This document shows, piece after piece, positions 22,555 through 64,000 of a DNA stretch of 64,000 bases. The notes beneath the pieces were generated by a model, which was not told the DNA's origin, did no database searches, and worked only from the letters and a program-made list of their open reading frames with translations. Within the stretch, counting starts at the first letter, position 1. The number at the start of each line of letters is the position of its first letter. The stretch comes from Gammaproteobacteria bacterium (lineage in GTDB: Bacteria > Pseudomonadota > Gammaproteobacteria > SZUA-229): assembly GCA_016744065.1 (NCBI GenBank), contig JADGFA010000004.1, forward strand, positions 64,559 to 128,558, written 5' to 3'. The position numbers and the translations under genes were made by a program.

Positions 22555-23775
22555 TTATTTAATTGATTTTAAGTATTTTTCCAGAGTAGTTAATTGATCA
22601 CCGGACAAGTCGAGCCGCCGATGTGAGCGAATACTTCCATCACGAAGCAGTCCAGAAATTTTTTCTGCTTCTATTTCAAATTCAGATGCATTACTCGAGT
22701 GGCAATAGACACAATTATCTTCATATAGCTTACGCCCCTCCTCTATTGCCTTTCCAGGCGTCTCATTAAGAGGCTGAAAAGACGTTTCAAGATTATCCAG
22801 GCTTTGATAAAAGCTACCTTTATCCCAAAAATCAGGCTCTGAGCAACCTAAGCAGGGATGTCCTGCTTCAACAGGGAAACTGGTGCCCTTATTCCATTTA
22901 TGCACTGCACAGGCATTATGAGTTACCGGGCCTTTACATCCCAACTTATACAGACACCAGCCTTTACGCGCCCCTTCATCATCAAAACTTTCTGCAAACT
23001 TCTCATCCTGATAAAAATGATAGCGGGGGCAACGTTCATGCACCGTGTTAGCATAAAAATTGACCGGCCGCTTCTGATCATCCAGTTCGGGAAATCGGTC
23101 AAAAACAAGGTAATGAGCCAACACACCACTGATGGCAACGGGAAGCGGTGGGCAACCGGGAATATTAATCAGCATTTTTTTTGATATAAGGCCTCTTTCC
23201 ATGAGCTGCCCAACACTTTTTGCTCCCGTTGGATCAGGTTTCGCCGCGGGTAACCCTCCATAAGCGGCGCAGCTTCCTATTGCCATCACCGCTGCGGCAC
23301 CAGCACTGCACTCCTGTAATATATCCAGGTTAGTCCTACCCGCAATAGTTGAATAAACACCACCCTCTGCAACTGGAACTGAACCATCAACAATCAACAG
23401 GTATTGCCCATAGAATTTCTTCATTACATCTAATCGGGCCATTTCTGCTGCTTCACCTGAAGCAGCCTGCAAAGTATGGTGATAATCAAGTGAGATATAA
23501 TCAAACATCAAATCTTCGATGCCTGGTGTGTGTGAACGGGTAAGCGACTCAGTACAGCCCGTACACTCCTGAAATGAAAGCCAGATAACAGAAGGTCGAG
23601 TTGCATGGCGCAATTTTTCAGACAACACAGGAATGACACTGACAGGCAGGGCTAATAAAGAAGCCATTACCGAACAGTATTTCAGAAATGACCGTCGGCT
23701 TACTCCCTTTTGAGACAGGTAAGCTTCAAAAGTAATTGCTTTAGATTTTTTTTCTACCAATATAAACCACAACAA
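22555..23775 (-). CDS. [NiFe]-hydrogenase small-subunit homolog (Tat signal, three Fe-S cluster motifs) with extra C-terminal cytochrome c-like CxxCH domain; no large-subunit gene nearby
   Basis: Tat leader [23 protein letters not shown] aligns to E. coli HyaA ([23 protein letters not shown]). Proximal-cluster motifs [16 protein letters not shown] and PGCPP. NiFe_hyd_SSU_C-like medial and distal cluster ligands CPRYHF...[17 protein letters not shown]...[13 protein letters not shown]. C-terminal extension [13 protein letters not shown]...[17 protein letters not shown] resembles a class I cytochrome c. Confidence 0.8.
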   Translation of the reverse strand: [406 protein letters not shown]

Positions 23776-29436: not shown

Positions 29437-29508
29437 TTAAAAGAATTAGGTGATATAAGGATGTATCACCATTTTTAAGATTAAAAGATCATTTATAAAA
29501 GTTCAAAC

Positions 29509-31287
29509 TTAATGCTCTACAGGTGGCGCTACTCTTAACACCTCTTCTACCGTTGTTAAACCTGACGCAACTTTCAAAGCACCACTTAAACGTAATGGCC
29601 GCATACCTTCGCTCATAGCCAGTTTTTTCAGATTTTGCATATTAATATCATCAACAATTAAATCCTTAATTTTATCGCTGAAAGTAAACATTTCATAAAG
29701 CCCCATTCTCCCCATAAAACCAGTATTTCTACATTCCAGACAGCCAACGGGTTTAAAAATCTTTTTGGGCTTTGCTGGTTTCCAGGGCTTCACCAGCGCT
29801 TTCCAGGTTACATCATCGATTTCCGTTTCCTGTTTACAATGCGGGCACAACACTCTCACCAGGCGTTGCGCCATAATACCCAATATGGTGGACTGTATTA
29901 AATAGGCAGGCACACCAATTTCCATCAAACGGGTTACTGCTGAAGGTGCATCGTTAGTATGTAAAGTAGAAACGACCAGATGCCCCGTTAATGCAGCCTG
30001 GATAGCAATATCCGCTGTTTCCCTGTCGCGAATCTCACCAATCATTATAATATCCGGGTCCTGTCTCAATAAAGTACGTACACCGGTTGAAAAATCCAGA
30101 CCAATATTATGCTGCACCTGCATCTGGTTAAAACTGCTTTCTACCAGTTCTATTGGGTCTTCAACTGTACAGACATTCACTTCTGGCTTTGCCAACTGTT
30201 TCAGGCTGGTATAGAGCGTGGTTGTTTTACCCGAACCCGTTGGCCCTGTAACCAGAATAATCCCATTCGGTTTTGAGATCATTGATTGCCAGCGTTCATC
30301 ATCTGACTGACTAAAACCAAGCTCTCTAAAATTCTTAACCAGCACTTCAGGGTCAAAAATACGCATGACCAGTTTTTCACCAAATGCTGTTGGCATGGTA
30401 GATAATCGCAACTCAATTTCTACACCATCCGGTGTACGCGTTTTTAAACGACCATCCTGGGGACGACGTTTTTCAGCAACATCCATGCGGCCTAATATCT
30501 TTATACGACTGGAGACGGCTGCCATAACTGTAGATGGCACCTGATAGACCTGGTGCATCACACCATCGATTCTAAAACGCACATTTCCCTGGTCACGCCT
30601 GGGTTCAAGGTGTATATCGCTAGCACGTTGATCAAAAGCATACTGCAATAACCAGTCAACAATATTAATTACATGCTGATCATTAGCATCCAGTTTACCG
30701 GCCCTTCCTAACTCCATCAGGCCTTCAAGATTGCCAATCTCATTTCCTGCTCCCAGTGCTTCAGATTCAGCTCGATTAACTGATTTTGAAACCGTATAAA
30801 ACTCTAGAAGATAGCGTGAAATTTCATCAGGATTAGATATAACCCGCTTAAACTCCTGATTATTTATACGCGAAAGCTCTTGTTCCCATTCCTTAACAAA
30901 TGGCTCTGCAGTAGCAATAGTAATGAATTTTTCATCAACAGAAATGGGTAAAATATTAAATCGAGCCGCATAAGCATAGGACATAACAGATGTTATTTTT
31001 GCAACTTCAATTTTCAGGGGATCTATACGATGATACGGCATCTTCACCCTGTCAGCCAGCCAGGTTGTCAACACGTCCAGTGAAAGCAAACTATGGCCAT
31101 TACGCTGATCGATCCATTGGCGCTCAGCAATCACACATAACGGGTTTTTTTCCTGATACTCCTTACCCACTGCCAATGTACGCAACATATGTGCGTTTTC
31201 ATCAGACACCATATTGTCATCTTCAAGCCACTTAAGCACCTCATGAATATCTAGCTTTTTTTCACTTTTTTTAATGACTGCATTCAT
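29509..31287 (-). CDS. GspE/PilB-family secretion ATPase (second copy; orphan with respect to T2SS/T4P partners)
   Basis: 592 aa. T2SSE_N-like N-domain (...ARFNILPISVDEKFITIATAEPF...). Walker A GPTGSGKTT, Asp box, His box, tetracysteine motif CPHC...CLEC. Characteristic GspE C-terminus GALKVASGLTTVEEVLRV. Confidence 0.9.
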   Translation of the reverse strand: MNAVIKKSEKKLDIHEVLKWLEDDNMVSDENAHMLRTLAVGKEYQEKNPLCVIAERQWIDQRNGHSLLSLDVLTTWLADRVKMPYHRIDPLKIEVAKITSVMSYAYAARFNILPISVDEKFITIATAEPFVKEWEQELSRINNQEFKRVISNPDEISRYLLEFYTVSKSVNRAESEALGAGNEIGNLEGLMELGRAGKLDANDQHVINIVDWLLQYAFDQRASDIHLEPRRDQGNVRFRIDGVMHQVYQVPSTVMAAVSSRIKILGRMDVAEKRRPQDGRLKTRTPDGVEIELRLSTMPTAFGEKLVMRIFDPEVLVKNFRELGFSQSDDERWQSMISKPNGIILVTGPTGSGKTTTLYTSLKQLAKPEVNVCTVEDPIELVESSFNQMQVQHNIGLDFSTGVRTLLRQDPDIIMIGEIRDRETADIAIQAALTGHLVVSTLHTNDAPSAVTRLMEIGVPAYLIQSTILGIMAQRLVRVLCPHCKQETEIDDVTWKALVKPWKPAKPKKIFKPVGCLECRNTGFMGRMGLYEMFTFSDKIKDLIVDDINMQNLKKLAMSEGMRPLRLSGALKVASGLTTVEEVLRVAPPVEH

Positions 31288-31490
31288 ATGAATATATGCC
31301 GTTTGTTGTTTTGTGCAATTTTAAATGAGTGTAGCAAATTGAATGATGCAAATCACCTTTTCACAGATAGCCATAAAATCTTGCTAGAAAGAAAAGTAGA
31401 CCATCGATATGAAACCAGCTGACTAAACAGTAAAAAATACTATACCTGCTGCTCTGTTCATAGAACAACATCCATTTTCTAGAGTATTAT

Positions 31491-32240
31491 TTAATATTTA
31501 AGCTTAACCACTTTATCAGGCTCTACCATTTTCGTATAATAAAACACACTTACTAATTTATATTTATTTTCTTTATCTGGTTGAATATCAATAGATTCAA
31601 CTTTTGCGGAAAATTCCTGCTGATCAACAACAACCTTTAATTCCTGGCCGATATTAAATTTTAATTTCTGTTGATAAGTTAAAAAAGCAACTGCAGATGC
31701 CTGTTTTGCTGACACTAGCTCAATAAAAGTTTCTGTTTTATTTTCTGCCGAAATAACCATCGCTTCTATTACATTTGAATTTACAACATACGCTGAATCT
31801 CTCGCTTTTAACGCAGAACGTTTTAATTTCCAGCTTCGTAGCAAACATTCAGCCTTTACTTCTTTCTGGCTTTCAATTAACACCTTATATTTACCATCGA
31901 TTTTTTGCAGCTCAACCTCAGACAAAACGGTTCGCTCAAATAACTCCTCAGCCTGATCCAGCTCAAGTTTAGCGTCAAAAATTTGAGGATTTAATTTATC
32001 AAACTGTGCCTGGCATTGTTTAATTTTATAATTAAACGGATTACTTTCAAGTTTTGCCAGCGCATCGCCTTTTTTAACTTTTTCTCCGACTTTCACCAGA
32101 ACTTTATCAACGACACCATTAACTGAAAATCCATATTTTTGATGCCCCACCCAACTTAACCTTGCTTCCATTTCAACAGCCTGAGAAATCGTATGAAATC
32201 CAGATAAAAAAATAATAATCAGTAAACTGCATTTTTTCAT
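31491..32240 (-). CDS. Periplasmic adaptor (membrane-fusion protein family, biotin-lipoyl-like plus short coiled coil plus beta-barrel), minimal 249 aa form
   Basis: Signal peptide. GVVDKVLVKVGEKVKKGDALAKLES barrel-sandwich hybrid motif followed by coiled coil and beta-barrel domain. Immediately downstream (77 nt) of the TolC-like gene. Confidence 0.6.
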   Translation of the reverse strand: MKKCSLLIIIFLSGFHTISQAVEMEARLSWVGHQKYGFSVNGVVDKVLVKVGEKVKKGDALAKLESNPFNYKIKQCQAQFDKLNPQIFDAKLELDQAEELFERTVLSEVELQKIDGKYKVLIESQKEVKAECLLRSWKLKRSALKARDSAYVVNSNVIEAMVISAENKTETFIELVSAKQASAVAFLTYQQKLKFNIGQELKVVVDQQEFSAKVESIDIQPDKENKYKLVSVFYYTKMVEPDKVVKLKY

Positions 32241-32316
32241 AATTAATTATCACCTATCATGATACTTTCATTTTATACTTAATCATAATATACAAAAAAC
32301 TAAATATTATGGCTCA

Positions 32317-33594
32317 TCATAACGGATCCACTTCACCAGATAATAACCTCAATTGCATTCTTGCCAACGCCAGTTCAAAATTATTTTTTGCCCGTTTATA
32401 CTGTATCTCTGAAATGGCTACCATTGAATTACCCAGGTTTGTTTCTACCTCCATTTCATATAACGCACGGCTCTTATCAAGCCTTAACTCTCTAAAATCC
32501 TGTGAGGTTAACAATTGTTCCTGACGCTGATTGAGCACATTAACAGTTTGCCACAGCTTCAATATTTGCTTACGCAAATTAATTTTTATATTCAATAAAT
32601 TCGCTCGTTGCTGTAACCAGCCAGCCCTTGCTTTGGAAATATCTCTCTTAATACTACTATTTTCATACAAAGGAACAATCAAATTAAGTTGCGCTCTCCA
32701 TTCATCATTTGAGCCTTTAACTCGTGCATATTCAGATACTTTAATTTCGGCATCAAGACGAGGCCCGAACTTGTTTTCTGCCGCAGACACTCTTTGACTT
32801 GCTGCCTGCATCTGTTTGTTCGCCAGTTTAATCTGCGGGTTATTCATCATTACCTGATCAAGCAACAAAGAATAATCCGTAGGTATTTGTTGTGAAAAAT
32901 CTAACACAGGCATTTTTAAATTTGATGGTAACTCTGCCGGTCTGTTTAGTAGATCAGCTAATATAGCTCGGCTATGGCGTTGATTCATTTCACTTAGCTG
33001 GCGCTGATGGAGTACATCAACATAATTACTTTCTGATTCTAAAAGATCAACATCGGAAATTTGTGATAAAGCATGCCGGTCTTGCACCGTTTCAAAACGA
33101 ATATAAGCCACTGCCATTGCTTCATTATCCCAGGCATATTTTAAATCACTTAATATCACTTCAAAAAACTGCCTGGCAATATCAATTTTTCTTTGGCCTA
33201 TTATAAAAGGCATATAATTCTGTAATGCCAACTGTTCTGTTTGTGCCGCCAGAATGTTTTCTGTAGATGCGCCAAAATTATATAACGGTTTTATCATTCT
33301 CAATGAAATTCGACTGTCATTAGAAGACTGATCAAAAGCAATTGGTGATGGATTAATATATGCCGCTTCAACTTCCAGTTGTGCCCTGAATCCCAAACCG
33401 GCTTCTGCTCGTTCAAGCTCCGACTGTGCTCTGACTATTGATGACTGTGCTTCAATTAGCTGATAATACTGAGCATCATCAGCCATTCCCATTGCCTGTT
33501 CAAGACTAAGGGGATCGGGTAAAGATTCAGCCACTACTACAGGAAGATAAATCAGACAGCAAAGAAAGCGTACACTTTTATTTATAATATTCAC
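32317..33594 (-). CDS. TolC-family outer membrane efflux protein
   Basis: 425 aa. Signal peptide. Two-repeat alpha-helical/beta-barrel architecture with characteristic coiled-coil heptads (EQAMGMADD...LERAEAGLGFRAQLEVEA). Confidence 0.8.
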   Translation of the reverse strand: MNIINKSVRFLCCLIYLPVVVAESLPDPLSLEQAMGMADDAQYYQLIEAQSSIVRAQSELERAEAGLGFRAQLEVEAAYINPSPIAFDQSSNDSRISLRMIKPLYNFGASTENILAAQTEQLALQNYMPFIIGQRKIDIARQFFEVILSDLKYAWDNEAMAVAYIRFETVQDRHALSQISDVDLLESESNYVDVLHQRQLSEMNQRHSRAILADLLNRPAELPSNLKMPVLDFSQQIPTDYSLLLDQVMMNNPQIKLANKQMQAASQRVSAAENKFGPRLDAEIKVSEYARVKGSNDEWRAQLNLIVPLYENSSIKRDISKARAGWLQQRANLLNIKINLRKQILKLWQTVNVLNQRQEQLLTSQDFRELRLDKSRALYEMEVETNLGNSMVAISEIQYKRAKNNFELALARMQLRLLSGEVDPL

Positions 33595-33649: not shown

Positions 33650-34405
33650 TCAGCCATTTTTACGCCTGTTACGCTTATAACGAGTAAAGCTGGACTTCTT
33701 ATAGCCACCATTTAACATAAATTCACCCAACCAGATAAATTCCTCAACGCTGGAGGTTGGCCCAGTATATTTAACTACTCGCTTGCCACTCAAATCAAAA
33801 AAAGCAAAGACAGGCGTCGCTCTGACCCGTTGCTGTTTAAATGAAAATTCTTTCTGGGTAGTTACATTACCCTGAAAATCAGTCATTTCGACATCGCCAT
33901 CAATATTAATCATAAATATTTTAAAATGCTTTTTATAAAAGGACACCACTTCAGGCTGATTTAAAACAGTCGTTTTCATGCGATGACAAAATGGACATTC
34001 ATCCATTTCAAAAAAGATAAATACACCCGACTTACCTTCTTCTTTTGCTGTTTCAAGTTCTTCCGAAAAATCACCAAAGCCCTGGTCAAAAAACTCTACT
34101 TCATCTGCCTGTATGCTGGTTTCCACTAAAAAAAATGAAAATATGATAAAAAATATGAAGTGAAATTTTGAATAATACTTATTTTTTAAAAGGCCAGATA
34201 AAGATACATTAAAAGCACGAAATGGCCCTGTTTCATTATCTTTTCTTATCAATGCACCTGAATAACCAATACAAAAACACATAATAAACAGTTTTCTAAG
34301 TTCACTAAACCCATGAAAAGACGATGCTCCACATACGCTATTGAACAATTTTTTCAGGCTATTCATACTTATGCCTTCTTTATTTACTATTTTCGAGAAT
34401 ACCAT
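33650..34405 (-). CDS. Thioredoxin-fold protein with CPFC active site (start codon uncertain; hydrophobic anchor/signal before the Trx domain)
   Basis: Trx-like segment GVFIFFEMDECPFCHRMK...VRATPVFAFFDLSGKRVVKYTGP. Hydrophobic stretch FHFIFFIIFSFFLVETSIQA precedes it. Several in-frame ATGs are possible (34405, 34366, 34282). First gene of the thioredoxin-TolC-MFP cluster. Confidence 0.55.
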   Translation of the reverse strand: MVFSKIVNKEGISMNSLKKLFNSVCGASSFHGFSELRKLFIMCFCIGYSGALIRKDNETGPFRAFNVSLSGLLKNKYYSKFHFIFFIIFSFFLVETSIQADEVEFFDQGFGDFSEELETAKEEGKSGVFIFFEMDECPFCHRMKTTVLNQPEVVSFYKKHFKIFMINIDGDVEMTDFQGNVTTQKEFSFKQQRVRATPVFAFFDLSGKRVVKYTGPTSSVEEFIWLGEFMLNGGYKKSSFTRYKRNRRKNG

Positions 34406-34489: not shown

Positions 34490-34529
34490 AGCCTGAATCA
34501 TAAGAAATCAGGCTAGATAACTAGCCTGC

Positions 34530-35192
34530 TTATTGAGCAAGATATGCATCATCAGAAGACTCTGTTGAACCCACTGACCAGGCTCCACGTGTTTTAGCAT
34601 GATCAACGGCTGCATTAATATCAGCACTAGAAGCACTGCGATCAATATCAAGCACCTGACCTGGATGGATTAAATCGGCATCTTTAATCTGACTACGATT
34701 CGCCTTATAAATTAATGGCCACTGATAAGGGTTAGCATAAATACGATCCTTAGCAGAGATATTCCATAAATTATCACCACCAACAACTTCATATGAATCA
34801 TCACCACCTGTTGATGCTGCATCATTAGCTATGGGCGCGGTGTCTTCTGCAGCACCACTAATTGCTCCGCTCTCTTTCAATCGAGCTTCCTGTTCTTTAG
34901 CCTGCTTCATAGCAAGTTCAGCCTGACGCTGCGCTTTATTAGCAAGCTCCACAGCTTTATCATAATCACCATCAGCTAATGCTTCTTCAGCACTTTTGAT
35001 GATTTTTGCTGTATCACGCCATTCGGCGTTCATTTTCTTTGCCTGTGCATTAGTTGATTTTGCATCAGCAATTGCTTGCTCAGCCGTCGCCTGAGAAGCG
35101 CCTTCATCTTCTGTAGTTGATGCGCAACCTGCAAGCAGACCCAACACTAGCATCATCATAAAGAACGACTTGAAAAGGTGGTTAAATTTCAT
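34530..35192 (-). CDS. LysM-domain lipoprotein with Ala/Gln/Glu-rich helical region
   Basis: Lipobox LLAGCAS. Central coiled-coil-like region. C-terminal LysM (GDNLWNISAKDRIYANPYQWPLIYKANRSQIKDADLIHPGQVLDI). Confidence 0.7.
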   Translation of the reverse strand: MKFNHLFKSFFMMMLVLGLLAGCASTTEDEGASQATAEQAIADAKSTNAQAKKMNAEWRDTAKIIKSAEEALADGDYDKAVELANKAQRQAELAMKQAKEQEARLKESGAISGAAEDTAPIANDAASTGGDDSYEVVGGDNLWNISAKDRIYANPYQWPLIYKANRSQIKDADLIHPGQVLDIDRSASSADINAAVDHAKTRGAWSVGSTESSDDAYLAQ

Positions 35193-47548: not shown

Positions 47549-49966
47549 TTAATCCTTAAACTTACTCAACAGCTCATCTGTCAACATGGGTTTTCCCATC
47601 AAGTAACCCTGCGCTATATCACAGTGGTTCTTTTCTAAAAAATCCCAGTGCGCTTGCGTTGACACCCCTTCAGCCACAACGGTTAAACCCAGTTTATGAG
47701 CCATCGCAATAACCGCAGCTGATATTTCCATATCATCTTTATCATCAGGAATATCTGTAATAAATGCCTTATCTATTTTAAGTGTATCAATCGGTAAACG
47801 CTTTAAATAATTAAGCGATGAATATCCGGTGCCAAAATCATCGATGGTAAGAGATATCCCTAAGGCTTTAATTTGATCCAGCAAATCAATGGCATGGTCA
47901 ATTTGCTCCATTAATGTCGTTTCTGTAATTTCAAGTTCAAGGTTTACTGCTTTAAAGTTTGTTTCCGAGAGAATATTTTGTATTGTTTCCAGTAAATCAG
48001 GGTCTCGAAACTGGCGCGTTGATAAGTTAACAGCTAACTCAATATCACGCATACCTTTCGATTCAAGACTTTTTACTTCTTTACAGGCTGTCCTTAAAAC
48101 CCACTGCCCCAGCTTGATCATTAAACCAGCCGTTTCAGCAATAGGAATAAAAAACTCTGGTGAGAGCTCACCTTTTGTCGGATGCTTCCAGCGTATTAAA
48201 GCTTCTACACCAATTATTTTTTTAGTTTTCACATCACATTTTGGCTGGTATTTAACATAGAGTTGATCACTGTTCAAAGCTGACCTTAAGTCATTTTCAA
48301 TCGTTAAGTGATCTACAATCTGAGTATTCATTTCTTCCGTAAAAAACTGAAAATTATTCCTGCCTAATGATTTGGCTTTATACATGGCCATATCTGCATT
48401 TTTTAACAGTATATCTGCATTTAAACTATCTTCAGGTGCAAGTGTAATACCAATACTTGGCGTAATTAATATTTCATTTTTTAATAATGACACAGGCTCA
48501 GACATTTTTTTCATTATTTTTCTGGCAACTGATGAAGCACCTGACATATCACCGATATCTGTCAATAAAATAACAAACTCATCCCCTCCCATTCGTGCAA
48601 CTGTATCCTGGTAACGAACACATTGGCGCAAAGTCGCAGCCACTTTCATTAATACCGCATCGCCAACATCATGGCCTAAAGAATCATTAATACGTTTAAA
48701 CTCATCTAAATCCAGATATAATAATGCAGCTGTAACACCTGACCTCTTCAGTCCTTTTAAAACCTGCTCAAGCCTGTCTCTAAATAAGATACGATTTGCA
48801 AGCCCGGTCAAACTATCAACATATGCCAGTTCCTCCATACGTAAATGCGCTTCTTTAAGCTGCGATACATCTTCAAAAACCGTCACAAAGTGAGTTATTT
48901 TTTCTTGCTCATTGGTTATAGAGGATACAGAAACCAGCACCCATATTTTTCCTCCGTCTTTTTTTCTAAGCTGCATTTCTCCCTGCCACTCCTTCCCCTG
49001 ATTTATTGTTTCCCATAAATCATTTACTATCTGCATATCAACATCTTCTGGTTGAAGCATGTATGTATTTTTTCCCAATAGCTCTTCTTTTATATATCCG
49101 GTTACTGCACACAGTTTGGGGTTTGCATATTCTATATATGCATTCTGATCTGTTATCACCACCATGGAACCACTTTGTTCAACAGCCGATGAAAGCATTT
49201 TTAACTTAAGTTGTTGCCTGCGAATATCCGTCACGTCCTTAATGCCTTCAACCACACCATCAAAATTTTCCTGATCATCCAGAAAAGGTGCTGATTCAGC
49301 CTGAATTAACACGCTATGTCCTTTTTTATGCAAAACTTCTATTTCATAAATGCTGGAAAATCCTTTTTTGCGTTCAGCTATCTGCTGCTTTAATACATTC
49401 TGATTATTTTCATTTTCAAAATCAAAAACTGGACGACCTAACATCTCTTCAAGACTATAACCCAACATATCTGCCAGGGCCTGATTCACAAATCGAATAC
49501 TATTATATTTATCAATAACCCAGATGCCTTCATTCAGGTTTTCAACAATACGTTTATATCGGTTATCACTTGTTGCCAAATCTCGTATAACAGTAAATAC
49601 ATGCTGCGCCCAGCCTTTTTCATCTCTTTTTATAACACTGGCGAGCACTTCAATTTCACACCAGTCACCCTGCCGACGTTTAAAACGTAAATTACAACGG
49701 AGCTTCTTTAATTCACCCGAATATAATTTATTAAACTGACTGATCACTCTGGCATGATCATGTGGATGAATTTGCTGCCCCCACCAACTCTGAAATATTT
49801 CTGCTGAAGGGATTTCATCTGACTTATAACCTAAAATTTGAGCCCATGAATTTGAAAAAGTCAAACTAGGCAAAGGCGGTAAACAATAATCACATAAGCC
49901 CACATTGCACAGACTAACAGCCAGTGCGTTAGATTGATGTATATCTAGATTTAGTCCCTCTGACAT
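47549..49966 (-). CDS. PAS/PAC sensor-containing diguanylate cyclase/phosphodiesterase (GGDEF plus EAL)
   Basis: 805 aa. Multiple PAS segments. Intact GGDEF (RMGGDEFVILL) and EAL (EALIRW...) motifs. Confidence 0.9.
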   Translation of the reverse strand: MSEGLNLDIHQSNALAVSLCNVGLCDYCLPPLPSLTFSNSWAQILGYKSDEIPSAEIFQSWWGQQIHPHDHARVISQFNKLYSGELKKLRCNLRFKRRQGDWCEIEVLASVIKRDEKGWAQHVFTVIRDLATSDNRYKRIVENLNEGIWVIDKYNSIRFVNQALADMLGYSLEEMLGRPVFDFENENNQNVLKQQIAERKKGFSSIYEIEVLHKKGHSVLIQAESAPFLDDQENFDGVVEGIKDVTDIRRQQLKLKMLSSAVEQSGSMVVITDQNAYIEYANPKLCAVTGYIKEELLGKNTYMLQPEDVDMQIVNDLWETINQGKEWQGEMQLRKKDGGKIWVLVSVSSITNEQEKITHFVTVFEDVSQLKEAHLRMEELAYVDSLTGLANRILFRDRLEQVLKGLKRSGVTAALLYLDLDEFKRINDSLGHDVGDAVLMKVAATLRQCVRYQDTVARMGGDEFVILLTDIGDMSGASSVARKIMKKMSEPVSLLKNEILITPSIGITLAPEDSLNADILLKNADMAMYKAKSLGRNNFQFFTEEMNTQIVDHLTIENDLRSALNSDQLYVKYQPKCDVKTKKIIGVEALIRWKHPTKGELSPEFFIPIAETAGLMIKLGQWVLRTACKEVKSLESKGMRDIELAVNLSTRQFRDPDLLETIQNILSETNFKAVNLELEITETTLMEQIDHAIDLLDQIKALGISLTIDDFGTGYSSLNYLKRLPIDTLKIDKAFITDIPDDKDDMEISAAVIAMAHKLGLTVVAEGVSTQAHWDFLEKNHCDIAQGYLMGKPMLTDELLSKFKD

Positions 49967-55693: not shown

Positions 55694-55924
55694 ATGTTTA
55701 AAAGTGTTTTAATTATTATTTTCGTTATTATCCTGCTTTTTGTTATACGCACGGTACTACAACGACTAAAACAGCCCTCCCCCAGAATAAAACCACTTGA
55801 TCACCAGAATATGGTGCAGTGCCAACACTGTAAAGTCTACATCCCGCGTGATGATGCTATTATTGAAAATAATAATTTTTTCTGCAGTACCCAACACTTA
55901 AATGACTGGAATCAAACTACTTGA
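55694..55924 (+). CDS. PP0621-family small protein (conserved partner upstream of pilS)
   Basis: 76 aa. N-terminal TM helix then CQHCKVYIPRDDA...FFCSTQH Cys/His pattern. Stop overlaps the pilS start by 4 nt. Confidence 0.6.
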   Translation: MFKSVLIIIFVIILLFVIRTVLQRLKQPSPRIKPLDHQNMVQCQHCKVYIPRDDAIIENNNFFCSTQHLNDWNQTT

Positions 55925-57555: not shown

Positions 57556-57592
57556 CTTAAGTTCCCAGCATACCTAACCAGATAACATTAGC

Positions 57593-58339
57593 TTAAAGCA
57601 ACCTGTTAACTAAACCGACAATTTCATCGGTATCTTTATTAATAGCAAGAATAGAAGTAGCCCTGCCACTTCGTACCCTGTAGAAAGCATAATCTTTAAA
57701 TTGCCCTCTGTTATTTTCTAAAAAATCATTCACCGCCTTCCCCCCTCCCTGCACTTTTGTAATCTCGCCCATTTTCAGGGAAAAACGATATATTTTCTCC
57801 CAGTAATCACTAACAGGTAAATATCGGTTCGACCTATATATAATATCAGGTGATCCATTCTGCGCAATGTCCATCACTATTCTCTGATACTCTTCTGCAT
57901 TTTCAGGCGGTTTTAAATATGCAATTTGTAGAGATTCATAAAACAATGGTTCCAGCTCTTTATATTTTAACTTTGAAACATCAATTTCATTCTTTGAAAA
58001 CACAAAAAAAGCACTATTTGAAAAAACCAGCAAAGCCGGTCTTGCTGAATAAGTAATATGTACACCCCAGGCAAGTGCAACAACCTGAACAAAAACGATA
58101 ATAGATAAGTCCCGCTTTAACGCTACTGGATTCTTTAATTTATTAAATACCACAAACGTTAATAACGGCCCCAGAATAACATCAACCCCTGCAACTATTT
58201 TAATCACATCCCAGGTAGAATAAAATTCATTAAATGGATAGGGGTACCATATATAAAATACAGCCAATAAAAACAGTGTAATAAAAAATACACTAATGCT
58301 AAAATGAACCCCAAAAGCTTTAACTCTTGCTATCATCAA
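57593..58339 (-). CDS. TfpX/TfpZ-like type IV pilin accessory membrane protein (tentative)
   Basis: 248 aa. N-terminus MMIARVKAFGVHFSISVFFITLFLLAVF with about three N-terminal TM helices and a soluble C-terminal domain, resembling the FimB/TfpX/TfpZ family pattern. Encoded on the opposite strand between pilS and pilR. Confidence 0.4.
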   Translation of the reverse strand: MMIARVKAFGVHFSISVFFITLFLLAVFYIWYPYPFNEFYSTWDVIKIVAGVDVILGPLLTFVVFNKLKNPVALKRDLSIIVFVQVVALAWGVHITYSARPALLVFSNSAFFVFSKNEIDVSKLKYKELEPLFYESLQIAYLKPPENAEEYQRIVMDIAQNGSPDIIYRSNRYLPVSDYWEKIYRFSLKMGEITKVQGGGKAVNDFLENNRGQFKDYAFYRVRSGRATSILAINKDTDEIVGLVNRLL

Positions 58340-58422
58340 TCTCCCCCTTAATACCTACTTATAAACCAATAGCGTATAGTCTGTTATACTCAGCATAATT
58401 TTCAAAACTATCATTAATTAAC

Positions 58423-60092: not shown

Positions 60093-60545
60093 ATGAAGAA
60101 AATCCAACAGGGTTTTACCTTAATTGAATTAATGATCGTTATTGCGATTATCGGTATTCTGGCGGCAATTGCGATTCCCTCATACAATAACTATATTAAA
60201 ACAGCTAACATGACCCAGGTAACTGGTAATGCGGCTGAAGCAATACGTATTATCAAAAATGAAATATCTAAAAATAAAGCACAAAGCGCTTTAAATATTG
60301 CAAGTACCGACAGAGATACGTTAAGCGGTGGTATAGAAGCAACAGCTGCATCAGGAGCTGAATGGTTCGCACACCTGAATACCACTACTGGCTCTAAAGC
60401 GCCTACTGGTGTCGCTGCATATGCTGCTGCTGCCGATGATACTACTGGTGTTGTAGGTGTTGCTCTAGCTAGTGATGTATTCACAATTGCTACTCCTGCC
60501 TATGAAGACCTGCCTTCTGGTGTAAGCACTGCATTTGACAAGTAA
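60093..60545 (+). CDS. pilA: Type IVa major pilin (Cys-free)
   Basis: Prepilin leader [31 protein letters not shown] with cleavage/methylation site G|FTLIE. Ala/Thr/Gly-rich C-terminal domain lacking any cysteine. Confidence 0.85.
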
Positions 60546-60580
60546 TCACTGGTAACTTGTTAAAAACCAGTTTTAAATAA

Positions 60581-60611
60581 AAAACCAGGGGGTACTCTCC
60601 CTGGTTTTTTT
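60581..60611 (+). terminator. Strong rho-independent terminator after pilA
   Basis: AAACCAGGG-GGTACTCT-CCCTGGTTT 9-bp stem followed by TTTTTTT. Confidence 0.75.
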
Positions 60612-60705
60612 TGCTTTATCATGTATTTACGACCATTTAACCGGCATAACTTAATTTTTGGCCTTAATATAGCTAAACTATATAAATTAATCTGGAGATG
60701 TATTA

Positions 60706-61128
60706 ATGAAAAGCACGAGCAAGCAAAACGGATTCACATTAGTTGAACTGATGATAGTTGTTGGCATCTTAGGCATCCTTTCAGCAATTGCTATCCCTAC
60801 CTACAACAACTATATCGTTACATCATGCCTAACTACTGCACGGATCAATTTAGAAACCCTGTCCACCTTTGAAGAAAACTACAACCTTGAAACGAATAGC
60901 TACCTGGCGGGCACTCACAATGCAGGAGATGACCTGGGCAGCAGCGCTTTAATGGGGAAACTACACTGGGATCCAGATGATCAGGGGCAGTATAGCTATA
61001 CCGTTGCTGTTAACTCTGCATATGACGGCAAGACATATGACTATGTTATTACTGTTGCAAGCGCCGAAGCATGCGCAGCCGCAGACGCAAAATATGGCCC
61101 TACTCAAAAAGGTTTTCATCAGCAATAG
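60706..61128 (+). CDS. Second type IV pilin
   Basis: Leader [36 protein letters not shown]. Two Cys residues (C42, C124). May have its own sigma-54-like element TGGCCTTAATATAGCT at 60669-60684. Confidence 0.8.
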
Positions 61129-61301
61129 CATTACCATGAACATCACTCCTGTAAATTTAGTGTAAAAGCGATACACCCAACCTGAATTTATCGACTAAAT
61201 AATAAGACTGAATAAATAATTAATTTCAGCTATGATATGTTGGTGTGAGTATATAAACAATTGTTTCATATCATAATTAAATAAAGCTGAGTCATTAACT
61301 T

Positions 61302-63008
61302 ATGCCACCAAATGTAAAACTGAGCGGGTTATCCCGCCGTCTGGTTCTTGATGGTCTGATAGACGATGAAACCGCATTAAGTGCTCAGACTAATTCGAAA
61401 AAAGAAAACCTTAATTTAAGCCAGTATCTTGTTAAGCAAAAACTGATCTCAGCCAATAAACTGGCGACAGTTGCTGCCAATGAATTTGGCATGCCTCTTT
61501 TCGATCTGGATTCACTGGATAAAGATTCAATTCCTGCTGGCCTGGTTGATGAAGCCCTTATAAAAAAACACCATACTATCCCTATTTATAAACGGGGAAA
61601 CAGACTCTATGTTGCTCTTGCAGAGCCCACTAATTTAATCGGTATAGATGAAATAAAGTTTCAGACCGGTATAAACACAGAAGCTGTTCTGGTAGAAGCA
61701 GACAAACTTAACAAATTAATAGAACGCGCCCTTGAGTCCAAAGACAGTGGTATGGATGATTTAATGGACGATGATCTGGATGATCTTGACTTTGAAGACG
61801 CAGAGGCAGAACCAGGTGATGATGCCTCATCATCCGATGCTGATGATACACCTGTTGTACGCTTCGTTAATAAAGTTCTCCTGGATGCCATTAAAAAAGG
61901 CGCTTCTGATATCCATTTTGAGCCTTATGAAAAACGTTACCGTGTGCGCCTGCGCATAGACGGAGTGCTTCGTGAAGTCGCCTCACCCCCCAACGCGATG
62001 GGTGGCCGACTATCAGCACGAATTAAAGTCATGTCACGTATGGATACTGCTGAACGACGCATACCACAGGATGGTCGAATTAAAATGCGTATATCAAAAA
62101 ACAAAGCCATTGATTTTCGCGTAAATACCTGCCCCACTTTGTTTGGTGAAAAAATTGTATTGCGTATTCTTGATGCCTCTGCAGCGAAACTGGGTATTGA
62201 TGCATTGGGGTACGAGCCTGAACAGAAACAAATTTATCTTGATGCACTGGATAACCCTTATGGCATGATCCTGGTGACCGGTCCAACGGGTAGTGGTAAG
62301 ACCGTATCACTTTACACCGGTTTAAATATTCTTAATACAGAAGATCGTAATATATCGACGGCTGAAGATCCGGTTGAAATTAATCTTGAAGGCATCAATC
62401 AGGTTAATATGAACCCAAAAGTTGGTCTGGACTTCAACTCTACCCTACGCGCATTTTTACGCCAGGATCCAGATATTATAATGGTAGGTGAAATACGTGA
62501 TCTGGAAACAGCCAGCATTGCAATCAAAGCAGCCCAAACGGGACATATGGTTATGTCCACTTTACATACCAATGATGCACCACAAACACTATCACGCCTT
62601 ATTAACATGGGCGTTCCTCCTTTCAATATTGCATCTGCAGTCAACCTGATTATTGCTCAACGACTTGCTCGACGTTTATGTGAAAACTGTAAAGTAGAAG
62701 AGAAAATACCCAATGAAACCTTGCTAGAAGAAGGTTTCCTGGAACAGGATATTAACGATGGTATCAAGCTTTACAAAGCCGTTGGCTGTGATCAGTGTGA
62801 CAAAGGCTATAAGGGCCGCGTTGGCATCTATCAGGTAATGAAAATTTCGGAAGAAATGGGGCGAATTATTATGCGCGAAGGCAACGCACTGGAATTAGCA
62901 GATCAGGCACAAAAAGAAGACATTGCAGATCTACGACAATCCGCACTAAAAAAAGCAAAAAGCGGTGTAACCAGCCTGGAAGAGATTAACCGGGTAACTA
63001 AGGATTAA
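61302..63008 (+). CDS. pilB: Type IV pilus assembly ATPase PilB
   Basis: N-terminus MPPNVKLSGLSRRLVLDGLIDDETA matches PilB (P. aeruginosa MNDSIQLSGLSRQLVQANLLDEKTA). Acidic linker. Walker A GPTGSGKTVS and tetracysteine motif. Confidence 0.95.
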   Translation: MPPNVKLSGLSRRLVLDGLIDDETALSAQTNSKKENLNLSQYLVKQKLISANKLATVAANEFGMPLFDLDSLDKDSIPAGLVDEALIKKHHTIPIYKRGNRLYVALAEPTNLIGIDEIKFQTGINTEAVLVEADKLNKLIERALESKDSGMDDLMDDDLDDLDFEDAEAEPGDDASSSDADDTPVVRFVNKVLLDAIKKGASDIHFEPYEKRYRVRLRIDGVLREVASPPNAMGGRLSARIKVMSRMDTAERRIPQDGRIKMRISKNKAIDFRVNTCPTLFGEKIVLRILDASAAKLGIDALGYEPEQKQIYLDALDNPYGMILVTGPTGSGKTVSLYTGLNILNTEDRNISTAEDPVEINLEGINQVNMNPKVGLDFNSTLRAFLRQDPDIIMVGEIRDLETASIAIKAAQTGHMVMSTLHTNDAPQTLSRLINMGVPPFNIASAVNLIIAQRLARRLCENCKVEEKIPNETLLEEGFLEQDINDGIKLYKAVGCDQCDKGYKGRVGIYQVMKISEEMGRIIMREGNALELADQAQKEDIADLRQSALKKAKSGVTSLEEINRVTKD

Positions 63009-63010
63009 AT

Positions 63011-64000
63011 ATGGCACAAAAAAAAATAGAAAAGGTCGCTTTTTCCTGGGAAGGTAAAAACAAGGAAGGACGGGTTCTAAAAGGGGTAATTAATGCGGCT
63101 AGTCTCGACCTGGTAAAAGCTCAGCTAAGAAAACAGGGCATAGTCCCCAAGAAAGTTCGTAAAAAATCAGCTGGCGCATTTGGTGGTAAAAAAGGAAAAC
63201 CCATAAAATCAGGTGATATTAGTGTTTTCAGCCGACAGATGGCAACCATGATGAAAGCAGGGGTTCCCTTAGTCCAGTCATTTGATATTGTGGCAGATGG
63301 TCACGCCAATAAAAATGTCTCTGAGTTAATTTACGCCATCAAATCAGATGTAGAAGCCGGTGGTACATTTGCTGATGCATTAAAAAGCCACCCTGCACAC
63401 TTTGATGATCTATTCTGCCACCTGGTTCAGGCAGGAGAGCAGTCAGGCGCACTTGAAACTTTACTAGAAAAAGTTGCTACTTATAAAGAAAAAACGGAAG
63501 CACTAAAAAATAAAATCAAAAAAGCAATGACCTATCCAATATCTGTTATGGTCGTTGCATTTATTGTAACCGTAATTTTGCTGATTTTTGTAATTCCAAC
63601 ATTCACAACTATGTTCGCAGGTTTTGGTGCTGATTTACCTGCATTCACCATGTTTGTAGTCGGCATATCTGACTTTATGGTTGAATGGTGGTGGGCTGTA
63701 TTTGGCTCTATATTTGCCGTAATGACTACCGTCGGACAAACACATAAACGCTCTAAAGCATTTCGCGATGCACTGGATCGAATATACCTGAAGCTCCCTG
63801 TTATTGGTGATCTTGTCCTTAATTCATCAGTAGCAAAATTTTCCAGAACATTAGCAACCATGTTTGCCGCAGGGGTTCCCCTGGTAGAGGCAATGGACTC
63901 TGTTGCTGGAGCAGCAGGTAATAATGAGTACGTAAAAGCCATTAATATCGTCAGAGATGATCTTGCCAGTGGCTTACAGTTACAAAGCAGCTTACAAAAT
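63011..64000 (+). CDS. pilC: Type IV pilus assembly platform protein PilC (3' end beyond the window)
   Basis: Open frame from the ATG at 63011 to the window end. GspF/PilC repeat motif ISVFSRQMATMMKAGVPLVQSFDIV. Absent from the ORF track for lack of an in-window stop. Confidence 0.8.
   Translation, partial: MAQKKIEKVAFSWEGKNKEGRVLKGVINAASLDLVKAQLRKQGIVPKKVRKKSAGAFGGKKGKPIKSGDISVFSRQMATMMKAGVPLVQSFDIVADGHANKNVSELIYAIKSDVEAGGTFADALKSHPAHFDDLFCHLVQAGEQSGALETLLEKVATYKEKTEALKNKIKKAMTYPISVMVVAFIVTVILLIFVIPTFTTMFAGFGADLPAFTMFVVGISDFMVEWWWAVFGSIFAVMTTVGQTHKRSKAFRDALDRIYLKLPVIGDLVLNSSVAKFSRTLATMFAAGVPLVEAMDSVAGAAGNNEYVKAINIVRDDLASGLQLQSSLQN

What the first reader, a model, noticed from the sequence alone, without database searches (positions are those of the whole stretch)
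29509..31287. Second GspE/PilB-family ATPase with no T2SS or T4P partners, encoded directly downstream of a TolC-like/MFP/thioredoxin gene set
A canonical pilB (61302-63008) sits with pilC and the pilins at the other end of the window. This second ATPase is nevertheless full length and intact: T2SSE_N domain, Walker A and B, Asp and His boxes, tetracysteine Zn motif.

Within 15 kb there is no GspF/PilC-type platform protein, no pseudopilin, no secretin and no GspL/M. The upstream genes on the same strand are instead a TolC-family OMP, a minimal 249-aa periplasmic adaptor and a CPFC thioredoxin-fold protein.

A cytoplasmic GspE-type motor associated with a TolC/adaptor pair would be an undescribed combination. 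Alternatively this is an orphan secretion ATPase serving a system encoded elsewhere.
Basis: partly seen in the sequence, partly recalled or inferred. Interest (0 to 1): 0.7.

Follow-up and report, generated by a model that had tools for sequence, protein, structure and literature searches.

The report
Orphan TfpB-type pilus assembly ATPase
The "second secretion ATPase" is an intact member of the known TfpB family, a stand-alone helper motor for type IV pili, and its position next to TolC-like, adaptor and thioredoxin genes reflects a shared chromosomal neighbourhood rather than a new machine.

Summary
ORF 29509-31287 (-) encodes an intact 592-aa GspE/PilB-superfamily ATPase with every stated motif. 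No platform, pilin or secretin gene lies within 15 kb. A thioredoxin-fold gene, a TolC-like gene and a minimal adaptor gene lie upstream on the same strand.

The protein is not unclassified. It passes NCBIfam's equivalog model for TfpB (921.6 bits, cutoff 850) and fails the PilB and GspE models. The window's canonical PilB does the reverse. TfpB is the second type IV pilus extension motor of Acinetobacter baylyi, defined by being encoded away from pilC (Ellison 2021).

In 160 related loci no TfpB ortholog sits beside a PilC/GspF gene. Of 66 species-level orthologs with enough upstream DNA, 23 have the TolC-like/adaptor pair upstream, 24 share the backbone without it, and 19 lie in other contexts. 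Conversely, 12 of 39 thioredoxin/TolC-like/adaptor loci lack the ATPase. Purifying selection on tfpB is the same with or without the trio.

The novel motor-plus-TolC reading is not. Interest is low. The adaptor/TolC-like cassette, which has no pump gene, remains a small open question.

The parts
29509..31287 (-). tfpB: 592-aa TfpB-family type IV pilus assembly ATPase (stop codon 29509-29511)
   Evidence: NCBIfam NF053534 scores 921.6 bits against a cutoff of 850, aligned full length. The PilB model scores 525 (cutoff 675.65) and the GspE model 522 (cutoff 630.25). Pfam T2SSE and MshEN also match. dN/dS is 0.03-0.05.
30754..31287 (-). N-terminal domain (residues 1-178) with the MshEN/GSPII-type fold
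   Evidence: AF2 model of residues 1-205 has pLDDT 78. Best Foldseek PDB matches are the X. citri PilB N-domain 7lko (E 6e-7), the MshE N-domain 5htl, Thermus PilF GSPII domains and the XpsE N-domain. Sequence search of this region against PDB finds nothing. The canonical 24-residue c-di-GMP motif is absent by regex.
29512..30672 (-). N2 domain plus C-terminal ATPase core (residues 206-592), carrying the Asp box, Walker A (30223-30246), Walker B, His box and the tetracysteine site (29731-29847)
   Evidence: This region is 44% identical to the window's PilB. The closest PDB sequences are PilB of M. xanthus and Geobacter, E about 1e-111.
31288..31490 (-). 203-bp intergenic region upstream of tfpB, containing the conserved block TTTGCTACACTC (31327-31338, 51 nt before the ATG)
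   Evidence: TTGCTACAC lies at -50 to -74 in all fetched relatives at 88-100% protein identity except L005. That group includes L007, which lacks the trio. The consensus scan finds no sigma-70 promoter or terminator here. In relatives this slot holds an acylphosphatase gene.
29449..29470 (.). Hairpin resembling a bidirectional terminator, just 3' of tfpB
   Evidence: Found by the pattern scan on both strands. This is a consensus match only.
31491..32240 (-). Neighbour, not part of the ATPase system: 249-aa periplasmic adaptor (lipoyl + alpha-hairpin + beta-barrel) with a signal peptide. Its shortness suggests it lacks the membrane-proximal domain.
   Evidence: AF2 pLDDT is 91.6. Foldseek matches MacA 3fpp at E 4e-15, TMq 0.74, and also AcrA and MexA. 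RND_mfp scores 75 bits, below its cutoff. The signal peptide and the missing membrane-proximal domain are read from the sequence and from the length difference to full-length MacA/AcrA; neither was tested directly.
32317..33594 (-). Neighbour: 425-aa TolC-family outer-membrane protein
   Evidence: Pfam OEP scores 62.9 bits with two repeats. TIGR01844 scores 49.6, below its cutoff.
33650..34405 (-). Neighbour: periplasmic thioredoxin-fold protein with a CPFC motif. The true start is probably internal.
   Evidence: Thioredoxin_2 scores 65.7 bits. Alignment A1 shows the conserved FFEMDECPFCHRM and RVRATP blocks. Homologs are 172-204 aa.
34530..35192 (-). Neighbour: DUF4398/LysM lipoprotein, the first gene of the conserved same-strand backbone
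   Evidence: Family hits are. It is conserved upstream of tfpB in most gammaproteobacterial loci. A terminator-like hairpin at 34509-34528 follows it.
60093..64000 (+). Inferred partner machinery: type IVa pilus genes. Two pilins (60093-60545, 60706-61128), pilB (61302-63008) and pilC (63011 to the window end).
   Evidence: PilB scores 866 bits on TIGR02538 (cutoff 675.65) and only 452 on the TfpB model. PilC/GspF and prepilin hits are, and the pilC reading frame. A PilS-like kinase and a PilR-like sigma-54 regulator lie at 55921-59784.

Best explanation
The gene encodes a TfpB-family ATPase. TfpB proteins are hexameric PilB-like motors that are encoded alone, away from the platform gene pilC, and that act on the type IVa pilus machine together with the canonical PilB.

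In this organism the machine is at least partly encoded 30 kb away: pilS/R-like regulators, two pilins, pilB and pilC at 55.9-64 kb. By analogy with Acinetobacter baylyi, TfpB would dock at the cytoplasmic face of the PilC/PilM platform through its MshEN/GSPII-type N-domain. It would then use ATP hydrolysis to drive pilin polymerisation, perhaps mainly the initiation of extension, while PilB sustains extension.

What is shown: family membership, gene integrity, purifying selection, orphan status across the family, and coexistence with a canonical pilB-pilC. What is inferred by orthology: the pilus-extension role and the docking partners.

The upstream LysM, thioredoxin, TolC-like and adaptor genes are neighbours in a conserved housekeeping backbone. 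That backbone runs arsC | lysM-(tlpA)-trx-(OEP-MFP)-(acyP)-(tfpB) | slt-proS, with the bracketed genes optional. They are not components of the ATPase's machine.
For: Family assignment
- NF053534 TfpB equivalog scores 921.6 against a cutoff of 850, aligned over residues 8-588 and model positions 3-583. The PilB and GspE models fall below their cutoffs.
- Reciprocal control: the window's PilB passes the PilB model (866) and fails the TfpB model (452).
- Orthologs at 60-63% identity from Burkholderiales and other Gammaproteobacteria also pass the TfpB cutoff, at 870-928 bits.
- TfpB and PilB in this window align only over the C-terminal 382 residues, at 44% identity.

Published function
- A. baylyi TfpB is a second T4P extension motor. 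It was named for lacking pilC synteny. 15 of 16 species with TfpB also have PilB (PMC8213720; species list; review PMC11656802).

Orphan status
- No PilC/GspF or pilin hit, and no second ATPase, in any of the 163 fetched loci.

Independence from the trio
- 66 genome loci have at least 3 kb upstream. 23 carry OEP+MFP, 24 share the backbone without OEP/MFP, and 19 lie in other contexts.
- In the Trx-anchored metagenome set, 27 trio loci carry tfpB and 12 do not.
- L128 runs trx-OEP-MFP-acyP directly into slt-proS, leaving no room for an ATPase.
- Close relatives L005 and L007 (89% identity) lack the trio but keep tfpB at the same dN/dS.
- An acylphosphatase gene separates the adaptor gene from tfpB in at least 9 genome loci.

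N-domain fold
- It matches the PilB, MshE and PilF N-domains.
Against: - Function has been tested only in A. baylyi. Orthology at the HMM level does not prove the same role in an uncultured sulfur-oxidiser-like gammaproteobacterium.
- Only part of the pilus machinery is visible. pilD, pilMNOPQ and pilT lie outside the window.
- In one clade at 60% identity, tlpA-trx-OEP-MFP-tfpB is a tightly packed same-strand array. Gaps between the adaptor gene and tfpB are -8 to +25 nt, so co-transcription there is likely. In the window no terminator is predicted in the 203-bp gap.
- In the Trx-anchored sample, tfpB was seen only where OEP/MFP was present (27/39 against 0/5, Fisher p = 0.006). That sample is dominated by one clade and is not phylogenetically corrected.
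- Independence was shown only at the level of the locus. Genome-wide co-occurrence was not tested.
Confidence: 0.75

Rival explanations
1. The ATPase powers, or is functionally integrated with, the adjacent thioredoxin/TolC-like/adaptor set. This would be a new envelope-spanning export or assembly system driven by a GspE-type motor.
For: - The four genes lie next to each other on one strand in the window.
- The same order recurs in two separated clades of the ATPase tree, at 76-100% and about 60% identity.
- In the 60% clade the adaptor stop and the tfpB start are -8 to +25 nt apart.
- In Trx-anchored loci tfpB was found only where OEP/MFP is present.
Against: - 43 of 66 orthologs have no OEP/MFP upstream.
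- 12 of 39 trio loci lack the ATPase, and some leave no room for one.
- Close relatives that lost the trio keep tfpB under the same constraint.
- A cytoplasmic acylphosphatase gene overlaps the adaptor gene's stop by 4 nt where tfpB is absent. Tight packing here therefore does not indicate shared function.
- The thioredoxin gene occurs with acyP but without OEP/MFP in 5 loci, so the 'trio' is not itself one unit.
- No inner-membrane platform or transporter gene is present to couple a cytoplasmic ATPase to periplasmic proteins.
- The family has an experimentally shown pilus role.
Confidence: 0.04
2. It is an orphan ATPase for a different type IV filament system encoded elsewhere in the genome, such as a T2SS, an MSHA-like pilus or a competence pilus, and not for the type IVa pilus.
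For: - The ATPase core is about equally similar to the PilB and GspE models, at 525 and 522 bits.
- The N-domain fold also matches the MshE and XpsE N-domains.
- The rest of the 253-kb contig and the genome were not examined.
Against: - Both the GspE and PilB equivalog cutoffs are missed, while the TfpB cutoff is passed.
- Dedicated T2SS and MSHA ATPases are normally encoded inside their own clusters. This family is an orphan in every locus examined.
- The only experimental data for the family link it to T4aP.
- The canonical MshE c-di-GMP motif is absent.
Confidence: 0.12
3. It is a redundant or regulatory PilB paralog with no motor role of its own. It might, for example, form mixed hexamers with PilB or titrate PilB partners.
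For: The review PMC11656802 raises PilB-TfpB hetero-oligomers as an open possibility. The two ATPases coexist in this window.
Against: All catalytic motifs and the zinc-site cysteines are intact and invariant across 81 orthologs. In A. baylyi TfpB alone supports pilus extension when pilB is deleted. dN/dS of 0.03-0.05 indicates strong constraint over the whole protein.
Confidence: 0.07

Closest known systems
TfpB of Acinetobacter baylyi ADP1 (NCBIfam NF053534; Ellison et al. 2021, PMC8213720)
   Same: Full-length match above the equivalog cutoff. Encoded alone, away from pilC. Coexists with a canonical pilB-pilC. As divergent from PilB as PilB is from GspE or MshE. All ATPase motifs are intact.
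   Different: The host is an uncultured gammaproteobacterium, closest to a siboglinid tubeworm endosymbiont at 93% identity. The gene neighbourhood differs. No functional data exist.
PilB, the canonical type IVa pilus extension ATPase (TIGR02538)
   Same: Same superfamily and domain order: MshEN/GSPII N-domain, N2 domain, and C-terminal ATPase with a tetracysteine site. 44% identity over the C-terminal 382 residues. The best PDB sequence matches are PilB structures.
   Different: Scores 525 against a cutoff of 675.65. The N-terminal 200 residues do not align by sequence. It is not next to pilC.
GspE/XcpR type II secretion ATPase (TIGR02533) and MshE (MSHA pilus ATPase)
   Same: ATPase core, zinc-binding CxxC pairs and N-domain fold.
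   Different: Below the GspE cutoff, at 522 against 630.25. No gsp or msh genes lie nearby. The canonical c-di-GMP-binding motif of MshE is absent.
Tripartite efflux / type I secretion assemblies (TolC + MacA/AcrA-type adaptor + inner-membrane pump); comparison for the upstream genes only
   Same: A TolC-family outer-membrane protein and an adaptor with the MacA/AcrA fold, encoded as an adjacent pair.
   Different: No ABC, RND or MFS pump gene lies in cis. The adaptor is only 249 aa, about 90 residues shorter than full-length MacA/AcrA, which suggests it lacks the membrane-proximal domain. In known tripartite pumps that domain contacts the inner-membrane pump (from general knowledge, not tested here). 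The pair is inserted between a thioredoxin gene and an acylphosphatase gene. The family is small, with 44 hits.

Membership tests
TfpB (type IV pilus assembly ATPase, NF053534) | Scores above the curated equivalog cutoff over the full length | tested here: met
   921.6 bits against a cutoff of 850; residues 8-588 align to model positions 3-583 of 584.
TfpB (type IV pilus assembly ATPase, NF053534) | [quoted passage not shown] | tested here: met
   The window's PilB scores 452 on the TfpB model and 866 on the PilB model. The two proteins share 44% identity over the C-terminal part only. A long branch separates PilB from 81 TfpB sequences.
TfpB (type IV pilus assembly ATPase, NF053534) | Not syntenic with pilC or other pilus genes (the basis of its naming) | tested here: met
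   No T4P or T2SS gene lies within +-15 kb. No PilC or pilin hit occurs in any related locus.
TfpB (type IV pilus assembly ATPase, NF053534) | Coexists with a canonical pilB-pilC locus | tested here: met
   pilB lies at 61302-63008 and pilC starts at 63011.
TfpB (type IV pilus assembly ATPase, NF053534) | Contributes to type IV pilus extension | not testable with these tools
   Shown only for A. baylyi. Needs genetics or heterologous complementation.
PilB (TIGR02538) | Equivalog cutoff and adjacency to pilC | tested here: not met
   525.5 bits against 675.65. There is no adjacent pilC.
GspE (TIGR02533) | Equivalog cutoff and location in a gsp cluster with gspF/L | tested here: not met
   522.6 bits against 630.25. 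No gsp genes lie within 15 kb.
MshE-type c-di-GMP-binding ATPase | Tandem 24-residue RLGxx(L/V/I)(L/V/I)xxG(L/V/I)(L/V/I)xxxxLxxxLxxQ motif in the N-domain, and an msh cluster | tested here: not met
   The regex finds no match in the protein. The fold is MshEN-like, but the Arg, Gly and Gln positions of the motif are not present on manual inspection of residues 12-39. There are no msh genes nearby. Binding by another mode is not excluded.
Tripartite efflux / T1SS (for the proposed ATPase + TolC/adaptor system) | An inner-membrane transporter encoded with the adaptor and the outer-membrane protein | tested here: not met
   No ABC, RND or MFS gene lies in the array in the window or in relatives. 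The adaptor is about 90 residues shorter than full-length MacA/AcrA.
Tripartite efflux / T1SS (for the proposed ATPase + TolC/adaptor system) | Consistent co-occurrence of the energising ATPase with the adaptor/OMP pair | tested here: not met
   23 of 66 ATPase loci carry the pair. 12 of 39 trio loci lack the ATPase. This was tested at locus level only, not genome-wide.

The most novel reading that the evidence does not exclude
In a subset of sulfur-oxidiser-like Gammaproteobacteria, tfpB is co-transcribed with a periplasmic thiol-redox and envelope module: a TlpA-like protein, a CPFC thioredoxin, a TolC-like protein and a short adaptor with no pump gene. Under this reading the module would cooperate with TfpB-driven pilus assembly. 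It might oxidise or isomerise pilin disulfides, or provide an accessory outer-membrane route. The cluster would then be a lineage-specific pilus accessory system and not an accident of synteny. Thioredoxin-fold genes lie directly upstream of tfpB in three different arrangements (TlpA-like, Trx-NHL fusion, CPFC Trx), which is the main hint.
Probability: 0.05. Interest if true: 0.65.

Novelty: new member of a known kind. Interest (0 to 1): 0.2.

Why it matters
For the ATPase, the finding mainly corrects annotation. Relatives are labelled 'GspE/PulE family' or 'general secretion pathway protein E', but they belong to the TfpB class.

The survey also extends TfpB beyond the taxa listed in the 2021 paper (Moraxellales, Pseudomonadales, Cellvibrionales, Xanthomonadales). 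It now includes tubeworm-symbiont-like and Thiotrichaceae-labelled MAGs, Thiohalomonadaceae, Sulfuricella and other Burkholderiales. That supports the idea that pili with two extension motors are common.

It is also a cautionary case. A recurrent, same-strand and even overlapping gene order can come from a conserved housekeeping backbone with optional occupants, not from a shared machine.

The one unresolved item is the TolC-like plus short-adaptor cassette, which has no pump gene.

Tried and rejected
- Acylphosphatase relic in the 203-bp gap. I tested whether the gap is a decayed acylphosphatase gene. A protein HMM built from 44 acyP genes scored against the three frames of the gap, and nhmmer run against the whole window, gave nothing significant. 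The only hint is a shared 9-11-mer, found inside acyP in L009, L018, L101 and L106. This remains an unproven idea.\n- Promoter and terminator scan. The consensus scan found no sigma-70-like site or terminator in the gap, so co-transcription with the adaptor gene can be neither shown nor excluded.\n- Regulon search. The conserved upstream block TTTGCTACACTC has no other meaningful copy in the window: 2 matches at up to 2 mismatches against 6.4 expected by chance. There is no evidence for a shared regulon with the pilin genes.\n- Direct comparison with A. baylyi TfpB. The sequence was not obtainable. The supplement of PMC13436744 is not held, and the supplement of PMC8213720 gives only IMG gene IDs.\n- Literature. 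A search for PA5210, my recollection of the P. aeruginosa homolog, returned only irrelevant papers, so I make no claim about it. A search for a link between an extension ATPase and TolC or a membrane fusion protein found no papers.\n- N-terminal sequence search. phmmer of residues 1-203 against PDB gave no hit. Only the fold comparison identified the domain.\n- Pseudogene or decaying paralog. Rejected on intact motifs and dN/dS.
Full report
**1. The observation**

ORF 29509..31287 on the minus strand is an uninterrupted 592-aa reading frame starting at ATG. Pfam finds the T2SSE ATPase domain (434 bits, residues 202-585) and the N-terminal MshEN/T2SSE_N domain (37 bits, residues 83-165).

- Asp box, 271-310
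- Walker A GPTGSGKT, 348-355
- Walker B DPDIIMIGEIRD, 410-421
- His box TGHLVVSTLHTN, 434-445
- two CxxC pairs, CPHC 481-484 and CLEC 516-519

The four cysteines are invariant in 81 orthologs. dN/dS against five relatives is 0.03-0.05. dS is close to saturation, so the ratio is approximate, but constraint is clearly strong. The gene is real, intact and selected.

The window is identical to part of a 253-kb metagenome scaffold. The closest named relative of the protein comes from the endosymbiont of the tubeworm Galathealinum brachiosum, at 93% identity.

**2. Surroundings**

Within +-15 kb every gene is a housekeeping gene or otherwise unrelated to secretion or pili. On one side lie proS, an SLT transglycosylase, a Crp/Fnr regulator, a [NiFe]-hydrogenase small-subunit-like gene, NnrS and a LysR regulator. 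On the other lie arsC, an FMN reductase, DUF2069, an Hda-like gene, purM, purN and clpB. No platform protein, pilin, secretin or GspL/M is present.

Upstream on the same strand are four genes:
- A 249-aa protein at 31491-32240.
- A 425-aa OEP/TolC-family protein at 32317-33594.
- A CPFC thioredoxin-fold protein at 33650-34405.
- A DUF4398/LysM lipoprotein at 34530-35192.

The 249-aa protein has only sub-threshold HMM hits. Its AlphaFold model (pLDDT 91.6) superposes on MacA, AcrA and MexA (Foldseek E 4e-15, TMq 0.74). The fold is lipoyl domain, alpha-hairpin and beta-barrel. It is about 90 residues shorter than full-length MacA/AcrA, which suggests it lacks the membrane-proximal domain.

The other end of the window holds a standard type IVa pilus locus:
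- a PilS-like kinase, 55921-57555
- a TfpX/TfpZ-like accessory gene, 57593-58339 (-)
- a PilR-like sigma-54 regulator, 58423-59784
- two pilins, 60093-60545 and 60706-61128
- pilB, 61302-63008
- pilC, from 63011

**3. What the ATPase is**

Against NCBIfam the protein matches NF053534, 'type IV pilus assembly ATPase TfpB'. The score is 921.6 bits against a curated equivalog cutoff of 850, aligned end to end. It falls below the cutoffs for PilB (525 against 675.65) and GspE (522 against 630.25).

The control behaves as it should. The window's canonical PilB scores 866 on the PilB model and only 452 on the TfpB model. Orthologs at 60-63% identity from Burkholiales and other Gammaproteobacteria also clear the TfpB cutoff, at 870-928 bits.

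The two ATPases of the window align only over the C-terminal 382 residues, at 44% identity. The N-terminal 203 residues have no sequence match in the PDB. Their predicted fold (pLDDT 78) is the MshEN/GSPII-type N-domain. The best matches are the Xanthomonas citri PilB N-domain in its PilZ complex, the MshE N-domain, Thermus PilF GSPII domains and the XpsE N-domain. The canonical 24-residue c-di-GMP motif of MshE is not present.

TfpB was described by Ellison et al. (2021, PMC8213720). In Acinetobacter baylyi it is a second pilus extension motor, phylogenetically as far from PilB as PilB is from GspE or MshE. It was named precisely because it lacks the pilB-pilC synteny. Single mutants in pilB or tfpB each cut transformation about 100-fold, and the double mutant is null. 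15 of 16 species with TfpB also carry PilB. Later work confirms that TfpB acts independently on the pilus machine and escapes PilB-specific inhibitors.

That is the defining signature of this known class.

**4. Is the TolC-like/adaptor/thioredoxin linkage meaningful?**

I fetched 80 species-level genome loci encoding relatives of the ATPase at 59-92% identity. I also fetched 80 metagenome loci anchored on the thioredoxin gene instead. Gene content was scored by tblastn and ORF clustering.

A conserved backbone emerges, with the bracketed genes optional:

DUF2069-FMN reductase-arsC (one strand) | lysM-[tlpA-like]-[CPFC trx]-[OEP-MFP]-[acylphosphatase]-[tfpB] (other strand) | [crp]-slt-proS

Among 66 ATPase-anchored loci with at least 3 kb upstream:

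| Upstream context | Loci |
|---|---|
| OEP+MFP present | 23 |
| Same backbone, no OEP/MFP | 24 |
| Unrelated context (Burkholderiales, Sulfuricella, Thiohalomonadaceae) | 19 |

The second group includes L005 and L007, which are 89% identical to the window's protein. In the third group the neighbours include ilvD and pyrC.

Among 39 Trx-anchored loci that have the trio and enough downstream DNA, 27 carry tfpB and 12 do not. In L128 the order is tlpA, trx, OEP, MFP, acyP, followed immediately by slt and proS on the other strand. There is no room for an ATPase. Five further loci have trx-acyP with neither OEP/MFP nor tfpB. The thioredoxin gene therefore belongs to the backbone, and the 'trio' is not itself one unit.

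In at least nine close relatives an acylphosphatase gene lies between the adaptor gene and tfpB. The window's 203-bp gap corresponds to that slot.

No related locus contains a PilC/GspF homolog, a pilin or a second ATPase.

**5. Points in favour of a link, stated fairly**

The same order (trx-OEP-MFP-tfpB) occurs in two well-separated clades of the ATPase tree. In the about-60% clade the adaptor stop and the tfpB start are -8 to +25 nt apart, so co-transcription there is likely. In the Trx-anchored set tfpB was seen only where OEP/MFP is present (27/39 against 0/5, Fisher p = 0.006).

Three things weaken these points:
- The sample is dominated by one clade and is not phylogenetically corrected.
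- Where tfpB is missing, the cytoplasmic acylphosphatase gene overlaps the adaptor gene by 4 nt in the same way. Tight packing is a property of this array, not evidence of shared function.
- tfpB in relatives without the trio is under the same constraint.

A cytoplasmic hexameric ATPase also has no way to reach secreted periplasmic or outer-membrane proteins without an inner-membrane partner. None is encoded here.

**6. The gap upstream of tfpB**

The simple scan finds no sigma-70-type promoter or terminator in 31288-31490. A terminator-like hairpin follows lysM (34509-34528) and another follows tfpB (29449-29470).

A 12-nt block, TTTGCTACACTC (31327-31338, 51 nt before the ATG), is conserved at -50 to -74 in all fetched relatives at 88-100% identity except L005. 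That group includes L007, which lacks the trio. This is compatible with a tfpB-proximal regulatory element. The same 9-mer lies inside the acyP coding sequence in four relatives at 80-85% identity, so it may instead be a relic of a lost acyP gene. HMM tests for such a relic were not significant. The block has no other copy in the window.

**7. Mechanism, with confidence**

*Shown:*
- family membership
- integrity and selection
- orphan status across the family
- coexistence with a canonical pilus locus
- modular independence from the neighbouring envelope genes at locus level

*Inferred by orthology (about 0.75):*
- The protein forms a PilB-like hexamer.
- It docks on the PilC/PilM platform of the type IVa pilus machine.
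- It drives pilin polymerisation together with PilB, possibly favouring initiation as proposed for A. baylyi.

*Rivals:*
- an ATPase for another type IV filament system elsewhere in the genome (about 0.12)
- a non-motor or redundant paralog (about 0.07)

**8. Novelty and verdict**

This is a new member of a known kind. The family has a curated equivalog model and a 2021 functional paper. The orphan arrangement is its hallmark.

The survey adds a wider taxonomic range for TfpB and shows that it occupies an optional slot in an old housekeeping backbone. The unexplained residue is the TolC-like plus short-adaptor cassette with no pump gene. It belongs to a small family, with 44 database hits. A second loose end is the recurrence of thioredoxin-fold genes directly upstream of tfpB in three arrangements. 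Overall interest is low, at 0.2.

Noticed in passing
window 31491-33594 (-); also L128 7639-9804, L163 8366-10581: A two-gene cassette encodes a TolC-family outer-membrane protein and a 249-aa adaptor with the MacA/AcrA fold. The adaptor is about 90 residues shorter than full-length MacA/AcrA, which suggests the membrane-proximal domain is missing. No inner-membrane pump gene lies in cis. The cassette is inserted between a thioredoxin gene and an acylphosphatase gene in a conserved backbone. The adaptor family is small, with 44 database hits. Its function and inner-membrane partner are unknown.
   Followed up: partly
window 31327-31338 (-); L004, L006, L007, L084-L091 at -50 to -74 from the tfpB start: The block TTTGCTACACTC upstream of tfpB is conserved in close relatives, whether or not the trio lies upstream. 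L086 carries it as a tandem direct repeat. The same 9-mer sits inside the acylphosphatase coding sequence in L009, L018, L101 and L106. It could be a regulatory site or a relic of a lost acyP gene. HMM tests for a relic were not significant.
   Followed up: partly
L044 8507-8998; L027 5242-6891; L024, L057; the clade at 62-63% identity (L034-L063): Thioredoxin-fold genes lie directly upstream of tfpB in three different arrangements. These are a 163-aa TlpA/ResA-like protein (WCPPC motif), a 549-aa thioredoxin-NHL-repeat fusion, and the CPFC thioredoxin of the window. This could be backbone synteny or a real link between periplasmic thiol-redox proteins and this pilus motor.
   Followed up: partly
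window 34530-35192 (-): The DUF4398/LysM lipoprotein that heads the same-strand array scores 86 bits on NCBIfam 'SoxAX-binding protein SAXB', just under the cutoff of 95, over its N-terminal 107 residues. It is conserved next to arsC in most related loci.
   Followed up: no
window 22555-23775 (-): A 405-aa protein with [NiFe]-hydrogenase small-subunit domains (Oxidored_q6 + NiFe_hyd_SSU_C in the precomputed Pfam hits) has no hydrogenase large-subunit gene listed next to it. Its neighbours are a 70-aa ORF and an NnrS-family gene.
   Followed up: no
window 57593-58339 (-): A TfpX/TfpZ-family pilin accessory-like gene (158 bits, below the cutoff of 200) lies on the opposite strand, between the PilS-like kinase and the PilR-like regulator, upstream of two tandem pilin genes.
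   Followed up: no
window 47549-49966 (-): An 805-aa PAS-GGDEF-EAL protein (a c-di-GMP turnover enzyme, DibA-like, below cutoff) lies about 6 kb from the pilus regulatory genes. It is potentially relevant to pilus control, but the TfpB N-domain lacks the canonical c-di-GMP motif.
   Followed up: no
window 33650-34405 (-): The thioredoxin ORF is 251 aa from its first ATG, but homologs are 172-204 aa with a signal peptide starting near residue 50-60 of this ORF. The true start is probably internal and may use a non-ATG codon.
   Followed up: partly
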